5,475 bases of DNA from Enterobacteria phage ID204 Moscow/ID, in the sequence record KC237308, one strand, 5' to 3'. The notes beneath the pieces were generated by a model. That model did no database searches. It was not told the origin of the DNA and worked only from the letters and a program-made list of their open reading frames with translations. Each line of letters begins with the position of its first letter. The first letter of the stretch is position 1. This document shows positions 4 to 5,475 of this stretch, piece by piece. A program made the translations under genes and the position numbers.

Positions 4-33
4 TTGACACAACCATAACTACATATCTATTAT
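4..33 (+). promoter_or_regulatory. Candidate sigma70 promoter for gene A (pA): -35 TTGACA at 4..9, 18-nt spacer, -10 TATTAT at 28..33
   Basis: Seen in sequence: exact TTGACA hexamer and a 5/6 match to TATAAT with 18-nt spacing. From memory, phiX174 has a TTGACA in the equivalent H-A intergenic position. The -10 assignment is inference; CTATTA at 27..32 with a 17-nt spacer is an alternative. Confidence 0.45.
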
Positions 34-34
34 G

Positions 35-59
35 CCTCCAAATCATCGGAGGCTTTCTT
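35..59 (+). promoter_or_regulatory. Stem-loop CCTCC (35..39) / GGAGG (48..52) with an 8-nt loop, followed by a pyrimidine-rich tract CTTTCTT; it sequesters the gene A Shine-Dalgarno and may be the readthrough terminator after H
   Basis: Seen in sequence: perfect 5-bp inverted repeat whose 3' arm is the GGAGG Shine-Dalgarno 9 nt upstream of the ATG at 62. From memory, phiX174 has the same arrangement (CCTCCAAATCTTGGAGGCTTTTTT before the A start). The regulatory or terminator role is inference. Confidence 0.4.
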
Positions 60-61
60 AC

Positions 62-1723
62 ATGCAACAAGCTAGTGACTTCTACAACAAACCACATATC
101 GACGCTATAAAACCACTCGTTGAAACCGCTGGTATGTCTGTGCTCTCTCAATCTCCAAACCTCCGTATCTGGAAACAGGTAAATTCTCGCATCAAACTTC
201 TGGAAGAAATTCTCGCTCATTACACCAATGGTATACGCCGTGACGACAACGGCGACTTCTGGATGAATCCTAACTCTCAACTCGCAACTACAATTGCCTA
301 TCGTGCCCATCAAAAAGGACACAATCCAAAACTTATTCAATACCCTGATACATTCACTCTGGATGACATTATCCGTAAAAAGCCATTACCACAAAACGCC
401 CCTGACGAATTAAAACTCTCCGATGAAATCGGGGAAGACTATCGCCTTACAATCATCTCTCTAATCGAAGAAATGCAAGAAATCTACGACGTGCTCGGAC
501 AACTTGATATTAATAACACTATAGACCACAAACCTATCGGTAACGCCCACTGGAATCTACTCTATGAAAAACCTGTCTATAAACACTGGTATGAACTGGT
601 ATCAAAACGACCCCTTAAATCAATCAGAGACGACTACAACTATGCAAAGGCTAAGGGTATCAAAGATGAGTGCTCGAAAATCCTTGAGGAATCTACTATG
701 AAATCACGTAGGGGCTTTACCGTTCAAAGATTAATGAATGCTATGCGTACCGCTCACACTGAGGGCTGGTATGTTGTATTCGATACTCTTACTCTAGCCG
801 ATGACCGCTTAAAGGACTTCTATGATAACCCCAATGCTCTTCGTGACTACTTTCGTGATATTGGTCGCATGGTTCTCACTGCCGAGGGTCGTTCTGTGCA
901 TGATTCATCTGCGGACTGCTATCAGTACTTTTGTGTGCCTGAGTATGGCACCCAGCACGGCCGTCTACATTTTCACGCAGTGCACCTTATGCGCACACTT
1001 CCTCTGGGTTCTATCGACCCTAACTTTGGTAAGCTGGTGCGTACTAATCGGCAAATAAATAGCTTGCAAAACACATGGCCTTATGGTTACTCTATGCCCA
1101 TCGCGGTTAGATACTCCCAAGATGCGTTCTCACGCGCTGGCTGGCTCTGGCCTGTTGATACAAAGGGTGAACCCCTTAAAGCTACCTCGTATATGGCTGT
1201 CGGCTTCTACGTCGCTAAATACGTTAACAAAAAATCAGATATTGACATGGCCTCTAAAGGTCTAGGGAATAAAGAATGGAACAATTCACTCAAAACCAAA
1301 ATCAACCTGTTGCCCAAGAAAATCTTTCGCATCAGAATGTCCCGCAACTTCGGAATGAAGCTCCAGTCAATGAGTCACCTCTCAGCGGAAACACTCATTC
1401 AACTGACCCAAGTGGGTTACGACGTGACCCCGTTCAACAACATCTTGAAGCAGAACGCCAAGAAAGAGCTCAGATTGAGGCTGGCAAAGAAATCTGTCGC
1501 CGACGTTTTGGAGGCGCAACCTGTGACGACCAATCTGCTAAAATTCATGCGCAATTTGACCCGTCAAATCGGAGTGTCCAGCCTACAGAGTTTTATCGCT
1601 TCAATGACAACGAAATTAACAAGTATGGATATTTCTGATGAAACCAAAAACTACGTTGATACTTCAGGAATTGCTTCTACTCACTTACGAATTAAATCGA
1701 AGTGGACTGCTGGCGGAAAATGA
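62..1723 (+). CDS. A: Replication initiation protein A (HUH rolling-circle endonuclease), 553 aa
   Basis: The translation aligns along its whole length with phiX174 gpA as I recall it (for example the C-terminal block ...KSKWTAGGK). The HUH motif HFHAVH is encoded at 968..985 and the active-site tyrosines of YVAKYVNKK at 1208..1210 and 1220..1222. I chose the ATG at 62 because it follows GGAGG (48..52) at 9-nt spacing and matches the position of the phiX174 A start. The ORF track's ATG at 32 is in frame but has no Shine-Dalgarno and lies inside the predicted -10 element. Stop TGA at 1721..1723. Confidence 0.93.
500..529 (+). other. Viral (+) strand origin of rolling-circle replication, 30-nt core recognised and nicked by protein A; predicted nick between G506 and A507
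   Basis: Seen in sequence: CAACTTGATATTAATAACACTATAGACCAC, which matches the phiX174 origin 30-mer as I recall it. It lies inside gene A, encoding ...[10 protein letters not shown]..., as in phiX174. The nick position is taken from established knowledge of phiX174 gpA cleavage. Confidence 0.85.
698..1723 (+). CDS. A*: Protein A* (N-terminally truncated A, from an internal in-frame start), 341 aa
   Basis: In-frame ATG at 698 (MKSRRGF...) preceded by GAGGA at 686..690 with 7-nt spacing. Position and length (341 aa) match the phiX174 A* start as I recall it. Whether this start is used is inference by homology. Confidence 0.75.
1276..1638 (+). CDS. B: Internal scaffolding protein B, 120 aa, overprinted inside gene A in an alternate frame
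   Basis: ORF-track translation MEQFTQNQ...[15 protein letters not shown]...[16 protein letters not shown] aligns with phiX174 gpB (120 aa) as I recall it. A purine-rich AGGGA lies at 1264..1268 upstream of the ATG. Stop TGA at 1636..1638. Confidence 0.92.
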
Positions 1724-3878: not shown

Positions 3879-3927
3879 GGTTGAACAAGCGCAAGCGCGT
3901 TAGCTACTTAACTTAAGGACTACTACT

Positions 3928-4458
3928 ATGTTTCAATCTTACGTCTCTAATCACACTTCACCTCAAACTAATACAACTATCTCCGGCTCTAAAACCCCTG
4001 CCGCTCTGGCTCCTATTTTATCTACGCCAGAGCTTAGCAGGGCTACTTTAGCCGGAACTATTACTACTACTGCGTTAGCTTCATACGCTGGTCTAGCACA
4101 TATTGTGCGCATTGACCACACTAACGCTACTAATCATCAATTACTAACTATCGCAACCTCTCTCGCGTCTGCCTCGCCTATTACTGCGATGGCTGTACGC
4201 TTCGAGGTTGCTTCGGGTACGGTTCCTACCGCTATCCCTTCTACAGCTACTTACTATCCAATTCAAAATATCATCTCCGGTACCTTCTTATCTGTCCGAG
4301 ATGCCGTTACTATCGAGACTATTCCAACCACTTCGTCAAATGACGTCTATGCTGGTGTCTTTATCTTCTCTAATGCATGGGTTGCTGGCCCTGTCTCTGG
4401 CGTTATCTCTGTCAATCAGGTAAACCGTGAGGTTTCTGTACTCCAACCTCTTAAATAA
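3928..4458 (+). CDS. G: Major spike protein G, 176 aa
   Basis: Translation MFQSY.S...VRFE..S..VPT..P....YYP......G.F..V.D.VTI...P.......VY.G.......WV.......SVNQV..E...LQPLK aligns with phiX174 gpG (175 aa) at the conserved positions I recall. AAGGA at 3915..3919 lies 8 nt upstream. Stop TAA at 4456..4458. Confidence 0.93.
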   Translation: MFQSYVSNHTSPQTNTTISGSKTPAALAPILSTPELSRATLAGTITTTALASYAGLAHIVRIDHTNATNHQLLTIATSLASASPITAMAVRFEVASGTVPTAIPSTATYYPIQNIISGTFLSVRDAVTIETIPTTSSNDVYAGVFIFSNAWVAGPVSGVISVNQVNREVSVLQPLK

Positions 4459-4467
4459 GGAACTACT

Positions 4468-5475
4468 ATGTTTGGTGCAATCGCTGGCGGTATCGCCTCT
4501 TCTCTTGCTGGCGGACTCATCAACAAAGCCTTTGGAGGCGGTCAATCTGCCTCCTCTACTGGCGTTCAAGGTGATGTTCTCGCTTCTGACAATAATGTAA
4601 TCGGTGCTAATGATGCTGGTATCAAATCCGCTATTCAAGGCTCTAATCCACCTAATGGCCAACAAGCTGCTCCCAATGCTATTTCGGGCGTTCTCGCTGA
4701 CACTGGCAAAGACGCCCTATCTTCAATCACTGGCGCTGGCGTTAATAAACTTATGGAAAAAATCGGACTATCTAAAACTGCTTCTGATAAAGGCAAGGAC
4801 ACAAAGGATTATCTTGCTTCTGCATTCCCCGAGCTCAACCCGTGGGAACGTGCTGGCGCTGGTGCTTCGTCTGCTGGCATGGTTGACGCTGGCTTCCAAA
4901 ACCAAAAAGAACTAACTCGCATGCAGCTTGACAATCAAAAAGAAATCGCTAAGATGCAAAACGACACACAAAAGGATATCGCTGGTATCCAATCTGTCAC
5001 ATCCCGGCAAAATACTAAGGACTCTGTCTATGCTCAAAACGAGATGCTCCAATATAACCAAAAAGAATCTATGTCACGCGTTGGCTCTATTCTCGAAAAC
5101 ACAAGCCTCACCAAACAACAACAAACTTCTGAAATTATGCGGCAAATGCTTACTCAAGCTCAAACCGCAGGTCAACATTTTACAAATGACCAAATCAAAG
5201 AGCTTACACGAAAAGTTGGCGCTGATATTGATTCTGTCCGCGCTAACACTGACCGTACCCATGTAGAAACTCAACGCTCAAAACAGGAGGTTCAAAACTC
5301 CCGTTACGCTTCTTCACAAGTCGGTAAAACCGCTAAGGACGTCTCTAATGCAGTTACTGATACAGCTAGCTCTATTGTTGATTATTTTCGTGGTATTGAT
5401 AACAAAGTGGCAGAAACTTATAACAACTATTTCAAAGATGGTAAATCCGACGGAATCGGGTCGAACATCAAATAA
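4468..5475 (+). CDS. H: Minor spike / DNA pilot protein H, 335 aa
   Basis: Translation matches phiX174 gpH as I recall it over long blocks ([15 protein letters not shown]...GGGQ...[23 protein letters not shown]...[73 protein letters not shown]...[39 protein letters not shown]...DGK.DGIGSN). AAGGA at 4457..4461 lies 6 nt upstream. Stop TAA at 5473..5475, which is the last codon of the window. Confidence 0.95.

What the first reader, a model, noticed from the sequence alone, without database searches (positions are those of the whole stretch)
4..64. Gene A start, promoter and an SD-sequestering hairpin: the six-frame ORF start at 32 is probably not the real start
The ATG at 32 (MPPNHRRLSY...) has no Shine-Dalgarno and overlaps the predicted -10 hexamer TATTAT (28..33). 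The in-frame ATG at 62 follows GGAGG (48..52) at ideal spacing and matches the phiX174 arrangement. That GGAGG is base-paired in a CCTCC/GGAGG stem-loop (35..52) followed by a pyrimidine-rich tract. This could both terminate readthrough from gene H and dampen A translation, consistent with the known low expression of A. Whether a transcript started from pA even contains the 5' arm depends on the exact start site.
Basis: partly seen in the sequence, partly recalled or inferred. Interest (0 to 1): 0.45.

Follow-up and report, generated by a model that had tools for sequence, protein, structure and literature searches.

The report
Gene A promoter nested in terminator
This is the well-known control region in front of the replication gene A of phiX174-type phages, where a promoter, the terminator that ends the preceding gene's transcripts and the ribosome-binding site of gene A overlap; gene A starts at the second ATG (62), so the finding is correct but ordinary.

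Summary
There is TTGACA (4-9), an 18-nt spacer and TATTAT (28-33). A 6-bp hairpin GCCTCC/GGAGGC (34-53) is followed by TTTCTT and by ATG at 62. ID2, G4 and phiX174 annotate the A start at the equivalent of ATG62. The upstream ATG32 lies inside the -10 hexamer and is absent from alpha3-like and other relatives. The hairpin is kept in 25 distinct relatives, with compensatory changes, and always abuts the -10. It is the ortholog of the phiX174 pA/T_H element, reported to block about 70% of transcription arriving from gene H. The phiX174 record places the pA start at the first loop base, which corresponds to window A40. Transcripts from pA therefore lack the 5' arm, are not terminated, and leave the Shine-Dalgarno largely free. 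By prediction, only read-through RNAs form the hairpin. Opening the Shine-Dalgarno then costs 10.7 kcal/mol, against 2.9 in pA transcripts. The start-site call and the terminator reading are supported. Dampening of pA mRNA translation is not. Already known; low interest.

The parts
4..9 (+). -35 hexamer TTGACA of promoter pA
   Evidence: Consensus scan, 11/12 overall. Aligned with phiX174 TTGACA 3927-3932. That hexamer holds 15 of the 35 detrimental pA mutations in the phiX174 mutational scan. Kept in the 25 relatives as TTGACA, or as a one-base variant: TTGACT, TAGACA or TTGGCA.
28..33 (+). -10 hexamer TATTAT of pA, after an 18-nt spacer
   Evidence: Same position as TTTCAT 3950-3955 in phiX174, TAATAT in G4 and TATATT in alpha3.
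32..34 (+). Upstream in-frame ATG (start of the six-frame ORF). A by-product of the last two -10 bases plus the first stem base, not the A start.
   Evidence: Absent in the alpha3 clade, PJNS002 and L018. It lies upstream of the predicted transcript start.
34..39 (+). 5' arm GCCTCC of the T_H hairpin
   Evidence: 100% paired with 48-53 in 14 distinct relatives, with 2 compensatory pairs.
40..41 (+). Predicted pA transcription start (A40, possibly A41), the first base of the hairpin loop
   Evidence: Inference. It lies 7 nt after the -10 and is homologous to the annotated phiX174 start 3962, the first A of loop AAATCTT. Not mapped in this phage.
40..47 (+). Hairpin loop AAATCATC
48..53 (+). 3' arm GGAGGC of the hairpin. 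GGAGG 48-52 is the Shine-Dalgarno of gene A.
   Evidence: In phiX174, 63% of substitutions in this arm are detrimental, against 13% in the 5' arm.
54..59 (+). T-tract TTTCTT (the terminator's U-tract in RNA)
   Evidence: Terminator-like hit. A T-run follows the stem in all 25 relatives.
62..1723 (+). Gene A (replication initiator), 553 aa, true start ATG62
   Evidence: ID2 annotates the CDS at 62-1723, and tblastn gives 98.7% identity. Homology to G4 and phiX174 A begins right after this ATG.
4468..5475 (+). Gene H, the upstream gene whose transcripts the hairpin terminates. Its stop codon is the last triplet of the window.
   Evidence: The genome is circular, so window position 1 follows 5475.

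Best explanation
Positions 4-64 are the H-A intergenic control region of a Bullavirinae phage, orthologous to the phiX174 pA/T_H/RBS(A) composite. Three signals overlap.

1. A strong sigma-70 promoter (TTGACA, 18 nt, TATTAT).
2. A Rho-independent terminator that begins at the base after the -10 hexamer: a 6-bp GC-rich stem 34-53 followed by the U-tract 54-59.
3. The Shine-Dalgarno of gene A, which is the 3' arm of that stem. A starts at ATG62.

RNA polymerase arriving from genes D to H transcribes both arms. The hairpin forms, and most polymerases stop after gene H. In the RNAs that read through, the hairpin should also bury the A Shine-Dalgarno.

Polymerase that starts at pA begins at about A40, in the loop. 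Its RNA lacks the 5' arm, so it cannot form the hairpin, is not terminated, and carries a largely free Shine-Dalgarno on a 22-nt leader.

ATG32 is a side product of the -10 hexamer abutting the stem and is not in the pA transcript.

Shown here: the sequence features, their conservation and covariation, and the annotated starts in relatives.
Taken from phiX174: the start site, terminator activity and mutational sensitivity.
Inferred: the start at A40 in this phage and translational silencing of read-through RNA.
For: - Identity of the genome: 96% identical to ID2, a Gequatrovirus.
- A starts are annotated at ID2 62, G4 59 and phiX174 3981, all at the ATG after the hairpin.
- The same layout is seen in phiX174, G4, alpha3 and WA13.
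- 25 distinct elements from isolates and metagenomes keep the layout. The 5' arm starts 23-25 nt after the -35 (21 nt in one sequence), which is 0-1 nt after the -10.
- The stem is paired in 100% of cells across 14 distinct sequences. Two pairs change on both sides (U-A to C-G and C-G to U-A), with G-U intermediates. Sliding the 3' partner by 1-3 columns gives 32-67% pairing.
- The phiX174 record annotates a transcription start at 3962, the first loop base.
- Logel and Jaschke report that the end of the pA promoter is immediately followed by the terminator stem, and that T_H blocks about 70% of transcription.
- The phiX174 complete mutagenesis preprint assigns the -35 and -10 to the homologous hexamers. 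It finds the 3' stem (the RBS) sensitive in 63% of substitutions and the 5' stem in 13%.
- Predicted cost to open the Shine-Dalgarno is 10.7 kcal/mol in RNA containing the 5' arm and 2.9 kcal/mol in RNA starting at A40. The same contrast holds in ID2, phiX174, G4 and alpha3.
- The fold of 40-100 is no better than shuffles, z = -0.47.
- NC35 lost the -10 and the 5' arm together in one 29-nt deletion.
Against: - No transcript 5' or 3' end has been mapped in this phage or in any ID2-like phage. The start at A40 rests on promoter geometry and on the phiX174 annotation.
- The U-tract (UUUCUU) is interrupted, so termination could be weaker than in phiX174 (UUUUUU).
- In phiX174 most 5'-stem substitutions are tolerated in the laboratory. 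So the hairpin, whether as terminator or as Shine-Dalgarno mask, contributes little to fitness in that assay, despite its strict conservation in nature.
- In pA-born RNA the Shine-Dalgarno is still predicted to be weakly paired with downstream pyrimidines: P(unpaired) is about 0.13. This pairing is cheap to open.
Confidence: 0.85

Rival explanations
1. One reading: the hairpin sits in the leader of the pA mRNA and represses A translation by sequestering the Shine-Dalgarno, which would explain the low expression of A.
For: The Shine-Dalgarno is the 3' arm of a stable hairpin at -11.7 kcal/mol. A is a low-abundance protein according to the literature quoted.
Against: - The 5' arm begins 1 nt after the -10 hexamer. 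Sigma-70 starts lie about 6-9 nt downstream, so this promoter cannot transcribe the whole arm.
- The phiX174 start is annotated at the first loop base.
- The abutment is kept in all 25 relatives.
- 5'-stem substitutions in phiX174 are mostly neutral.
- The low level of pA transcript is attributed largely to mRNA instability.
Confidence: 0.04
2. ATG32 is a genuine, perhaps minor, start that gives an A protein with a 10-residue N-terminal extension, translated from read-through transcripts.
For: The upstream ATG is in frame and open in phiX174 (27 nt), G4 (27), ID2 and the window (30), ID18-like phages (30) and L038 (30). This holds despite differences in loop and tail length.
Against: - There is no Shine-Dalgarno upstream of ATG32.
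- Its G is the first base of the stem.
- The ATG is absent in 13 alpha3-like elements, PJNS002 and L018.
- The 3' arm is read as Arg-Arg in G4-like phages but as Gly-Gly in phiX174, so there is no conservation at the protein level.
- Frame preservation rests on about two independent events, a chance of roughly 1 in 9.
- The phiX174 5' stem tolerates mutation.
- No such peptide is among those listed in the phiX174 cell-free proteomics table.
Confidence: 0.03
3. The conserved hairpin acts mainly at the DNA level on the single-stranded viral genome or the replicative form. An example would be the H-A intergenic sequence proposed to bind a limiting host replication factor.
For: [quoted passage not shown]
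- The same hairpin forms in DNA at -5.9 kcal/mol, z = -2.8.
Against: - The DNA hairpin is weak.
- The invariable T-run after the stem, the fixed abutment to the -10 and the Shine-Dalgarno content of the 3' arm are all RNA-level features.
- Termination at this site was measured in phiX174.
- The authors of the evolution study note that the substitutions also lie in the predicted H terminator.
- This could be an added role rather than an alternative one.
Confidence: 0.08

Closest known systems
phiX174 pA promoter / T_H terminator / gene A ribosome-binding site (NC_001422, nt 3927-3983)
   Same: Same order and spacing: TTGACA, a 17-18 nt spacer, a -10 ending in AT, an identical GCCTCC/GGAGGC stem directly after the -10, a T-run, then ATG. 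An in-frame upstream ATG is also formed by the -10/stem junction.
   Different: - The -10 is TATTAT rather than the degenerate TTTCAT with its TATG extension.
- The loop is 8 nt rather than 7.
- The tail is TTTCTTAC rather than TTTTTT.
- The gap from GGAGG to ATG is 9 nt rather than 7.
Phage ID2 (NC_007817) H-A intergenic region, with A annotated at 62
   Same: Positions 34-64 are identical, and so is the A start.
   Different: Two substitutions in positions 1-64: C10 for T, and T31 for C (TATTAT in the window, TATCAT in ID2).
The alpha3 / WA13 / St-1 clade version of the same element
   Same: TTGACA, 18 nt, TATATT, a stem abutting the -10, a T-run, then ATG.
   Different: - The stem is GCCCTC/GAGGGC, with two pairs changed on both sides.
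- It is extended by 3-4 further pairs.
- There is no upstream ATG.
- The element sits at the end of a 758-nt intergenic region (the annotated A start is at 759).
Shine-Dalgarno-sequestering hairpins in general (RNA thermometers, riboswitch expression platforms, phage translational operators)
   Same: The Shine-Dalgarno forms one arm of a stable stem.
   Different: No ligand, temperature or protein decides whether the stem exists. It depends on where the RNA started. The 5' arm lies upstream of the gene's own promoter start, so the gene's main mRNA never contains it.

Membership tests
Rho-independent (intrinsic) terminator | GC-rich stem of about 5-14 bp with a short loop | tested here: met
   A 6-bp stem with 5 G-C pairs and an 8-nt loop; -11.7 kcal/mol, z = -5.2.
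Rho-independent (intrinsic) terminator | U-rich tract immediately 3' of the stem | tested here: met
   TTTCTT at 54-59, 5 of 6 T, starting 0 nt after the stem. A T-run is present in all 25 relatives.
Rho-independent (intrinsic) terminator | Lies downstream of a transcribed gene and ends its transcripts | not testable with these tools
   The position is right: the stem starts 33 nt after the gene H stop. Activity is known only for the phiX174 ortholog, which blocks about 70% of transcription.
Rho-independent (intrinsic) terminator | Base pairing maintained in evolution | tested here: met
   100% of cells are paired in 14 distinct sequences, with 2 compensatory pairs. Slid controls give 32-67%.
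Sigma-70 promoter (pA) | -35 and -10 hexamers with a 16-18 nt spacer | tested here: met
   TTGACA, 18 nt, TATTAT: 11 of 12. A match this good occurs in 4.6% of shuffled genomes.
Sigma-70 promoter (pA) | Mapped transcription start about 7 nt after the -10 | not testable with these tools
   Only the phiX174 ortholog carries an annotated start, at 3962. A40 is predicted by homology.
Ortholog of the phiX174 pA/T_H/RBS(A) element | Same genomic position (between H and A) and alignable sequence with the same order of signals | tested here: met
Translational repressor hairpin acting on the gene's own mRNA | Both arms are present in the mRNA that is translated | tested here: not met
   Tested by geometry and homology only. 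The 5' arm (34-39) lies between the -10 (ending at 33) and the predicted start A40. It is met only for read-through RNA from gene H.
Gene A start at ATG32 (long ORF) | Start codon conserved in relatives and preceded by a ribosome-binding site | tested here: not met
   Absent in the alpha3 clade, PJNS002 and L018. No Shine-Dalgarno in 15-31. Relatives annotate the downstream ATG.

The most novel reading that the evidence does not exclude
The nested layout may work as a filter on transcript origin. A would then be translated only from RNAs born at pA. RNAs that read through from the strongly transcribed late genes would be terminated (about 70% in phiX174) and, if they escape, translationally silenced. 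In those RNAs the terminator hairpin persists and buries the A Shine-Dalgarno; the predicted extra opening cost is about 8 kcal/mol.

This would uncouple the dose of the toxic A and A* proteins from late transcription at two levels. The strict abutment of the stem to the -10 in all 25 relatives fits this reading. So does the natural co-deletion of the -10 and the 5' arm in phage NC35. I found no explicit statement or test of it in the papers I could read.
Probability: 0.35. Interest if true: 0.3.

Novelty: already known. Interest (0 to 1): 0.1.

Why it matters
For annotation, the point is practical. A six-frame ORF call or a longest-ORF gene caller would give gene A ten spurious N-terminal residues in this and related phages; the correct start is 62.

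Biologically, the region is a textbook case of signal compaction in the phiX174 family. The comparative data here only confirm that the promoter-in-terminator geometry is kept across the whole subfamily.

The one open point of modest interest is whether read-through transcripts are translationally silent for gene A.

Tried and rejected
- **Rfam.** A scan of the whole window at E <= 1 gave only one chance-level hit elsewhere. No curated RNA family covers the element.
- **Alternative pairing.** I looked for a partner that would mask the Shine-Dalgarno in pA-born RNA. GGAGG pairs weakly with CUUCU around position 80. The fold is no better than shuffles (z = -0.47) and costs only 2.9 kcal/mol to open. 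Rejected as a designed structure.
- **Frame of the upstream ATG.** I tested whether its in-frame position is selected. It is in frame in every lineage that has it. G4 and the window are colinear, only about two indel events are independent, and three lineages lack the ATG. Not significant.
- **Metagenome scan.** It returned mostly phiX174 spike-in copies, including a 328-kb concatemer contig, and only five useful new variants.
- **Primary papers.** Those for the phiX174 start site and terminator mapping (Harley and Reynolds 1987; Hayashi 1981) are not held in the library. The start site therefore rests on the RefSeq annotation and on my recollection that the in vitro A mRNA begins AAAUCUUGG.
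- **Whole-genome terminator scan.** It is not enriched over shuffles: 3 found against 4.0 expected. That count on its own is no evidence. The case rests on stability, conservation and homology.

Full report
**What the window is.** The 5475-base window is a complete circular microvirus genome. [quoted passage not shown] It is 96% identical to Escherichia phage ID2 (Gequatrovirus) over 91% of its length and about 85% identical to other G4-like phages. The finding therefore concerns the H-A intergenic region.

**Check of the observation.**
- TTGACA 4-9, an 18-nt spacer, TATTAT 28-33
- ATG 32-34
- CCTCC 35-39 and GGAGG 48-52
- a pyrimidine tract 54-59
- ATG 62-64, in frame with ATG32

The stem is one pair longer than stated: GCCTCC 34-39 pairs with GGAGGC 48-53.

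The promoter match is 11 of 12, the best in the genome. A match that good occurs in 4.6% of shuffled genomes. A CCTCC within 3-10 nt upstream of a GGAGG occurs in 1.25% of shuffles. The RNA hairpin folds at -11.7 kcal/mol with z = -5.2.

**Which ATG starts gene A.**
- ID2 annotates A at 62-1723, G4 at 59 and phiX174 at 3981. In each case this is the ATG after the hairpin.
- ATG32 is made of the last two bases of the -10 hexamer plus the first base of the stem. It has no Shine-Dalgarno.
- phiX174 and G4 have the same upstream in-frame ATG, 27 nt before the real start. Thirteen distinct alpha3-like elements (TATATT-GCCCTC), Salmonella phage PJNS002 (TAATA-GCCTCC) and the metagenomic relative L018 (TTGAATC-GCCTCC) have none.
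- The extension is not conserved as protein. The 3' arm is read as Arg-Arg in G4-like phages and as Gly-Gly in phiX174.
- In the phiX174 complete mutagenesis preprint, 63% of substitutions in the 3' stem are detrimental. That stem overlaps the gene A ribosome-binding site GGAGG (3969-3973). Only 13% are detrimental in the 5' stem (10.64898/2026.07.25.740675). This is expected if initiation depends on that Shine-Dalgarno and the codons upstream do not matter.

**What the hairpin is.** I collected the region upstream of gene A from isolates and from viral and metagenome contigs. This gave 25 distinct versions. All have the following:
- a -35-like hexamer
- 23-25 nt (21 nt in one sequence) to the first base of a 6-bp stem, so the stem begins 0-1 nt after the -10
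- a T-run
- the A start codon

In an alignment of 14 distinct sequences, the six pairs are standard pairs in 100% of cells. Two pairs change on both sides between clades (U-A to C-G and C-G to U-A), and G-U intermediates occur. Sliding the 3' partner by 1-3 columns drops pairing to 32-67%. The alpha3 clade adds 3-4 further pairs that also covary. The structure is under selection.

In phiX174 this element is the Rho-independent terminator T_H. [quoted passage not shown] They also report that T_H blocks about 70% of the transcription reaching it, and that the net change from gene H to gene A is 0.29-fold (10.1101/2020.03.05.979765). Zhao et al. give T_H the most stable hairpin score of the four phiX174 terminators (PMC3335065).

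**Where the pA transcript starts.** The phiX174 RefSeq record annotates a transcription start at 3962. In the sequence this is the first A of the loop AAATCTT, 7 nt after the -10 TTTCAT 3950-3955. This agrees with my recollection that the in vitro A mRNA begins AAAUCUUGG.

The window has the same geometry: the -10 ends at 33, the arm is 34-39, and the loop begins at A40. The predicted start is A40 (or A41). Independently of the homology, a sigma-70 start lies about 6-9 nt after the -10, so this promoter cannot transcribe the whole 5' arm. The pA mRNA therefore has a 22-nt leader, AAAUCAUCGGAGGCUUUCUUAC, with no terminator hairpin.

**Consequences for translation.** I computed the ensemble free-energy cost of forcing the Shine-Dalgarno open.
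- In RNA that contains the 5' arm (read-through from H), the cost is 10.7 kcal/mol.
- In RNA starting at A40, the cost is 2.9 kcal/mol.
- The same contrast holds in ID2, phiX174, G4 and alpha3.

The residual pairing in the pA-born RNA is with downstream pyrimidines. The fold of 40-100 is no better than shuffles, z = -0.47.

The hairpin can therefore occlude the Shine-Dalgarno only on read-through transcripts. Zhao et al. attribute the low level of pA transcript largely to mRNA instability.

**Mechanism proposed.** Polymerases coming from the late genes transcribe both arms and mostly terminate after H. Those that escape carry an A cistron with a buried Shine-Dalgarno. Polymerases starting at pA begin in the loop, escape termination and make a translatable A mRNA.
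- Shown here: the anatomy, the conservation, the covariation and the annotated starts.
- Borrowed from phiX174: the start site, the termination efficiency and the mutational asymmetry.
- Inferred: the A40 start and the silencing of read-through RNA.

A point against a strong role for the stem is that most 5'-stem substitutions in phiX174 are tolerated in the laboratory.

A point in favour of functional coupling is phage NC35 (DQ079872). A single 29-nt deletion there removed the spacer, the -10 and the whole 5' arm. It left the -35 fused to the loop, the Shine-Dalgarno and the T-run. No promoter-like or terminator-like site remains upstream of A.

**Rivals.**
- A DNA-level role for the H-A intergenic region in complementary-strand synthesis has been proposed for phiX174, where parallel substitutions accumulate in chemostats (PMC3606162). 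The DNA hairpin is weak (-5.9 kcal/mol). The conserved T-run, the Shine-Dalgarno content and the abutment to the -10 are RNA-level features. I treat this as a possible additional role.
- An N-terminally extended A made from ATG32 on read-through RNA cannot be excluded, but it has no positive support.

**Comparison and novelty.** The element is the ortholog of a described and measured phiX174 regulatory region, and it is identical over 34-64 to that of ID2. Nothing in it departs from the known kind. The finding is correct in its main claim and ordinary. Its practical value is to prevent a 10-codon over-extension of gene A in automatic annotation.

Noticed in passing
window 3917-4413 (gene G = 3928-4458): The genome is 96% identical to ID2 on both sides, but this stretch does not align with ID2 at the DNA level. 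The encoded major spike protein G is at most 56.5% identical to any G in the phage collection. It looks like a swapped-in, previously unsampled spike module in an otherwise ID2-like phage.
   Followed up: partly
L024 695-735 (phage NC35, DQ079872 / NC_007820): This alpha3-like wild isolate has a clean 29-nt deletion. It removes the pA spacer, the -10 and the whole 5' arm of the T_H hairpin, and keeps the -35, loop, Shine-Dalgarno, T-run and ATG. No promoter-like or terminator-like site remains in the H-A intergenic region.
   Followed up: partly
window 32-64, and the homologous sites in L002, L003, L015, L038 and L090: Wherever an upstream ATG exists at the -10/stem junction, it is in frame with the A start and open (27, 27, 30, 30, 30 nt). 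This holds even though loop and tail lengths differ between lineages. Too few independent events to call it selection.
   Followed up: partly
L015 1-60 (ID18-like genome): Only 21 nt separate the -35 hexamer from the stem, against 23-25 nt in all others. This implies a 15-nt spacer to TAACAT and probably a weak pA in that lineage.
   Followed up: no
phiX174 gene A, residues 62-79 (L002; literature, PMC6883844 Table 1): The formyl-Met peptide listed for protein A in the cell-free proteomics study is fMQGVEFDNGDMYVDGHK. It matches an internal Met62 of phiX174 A (translation), not the annotated N-terminus MVRSYY. It was seen only from the kleenX174 template. It therefore does not confirm the canonical A start and hints at an internal initiation site.
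   Followed up: no
loci L039-L107 (contig FUFK010037421.1, 327,964 bases): A metagenome contig consists of dozens of tandem phiX174 genome copies. This is almost certainly an assembly artefact of the sequencing spike-in.
   Followed up: no
window 4342-4359 and 4383-4402: Two weak terminator-like hairpins (3 G-C pairs each) lie inside gene G. Their number is at the level expected by chance.
   Followed up: no
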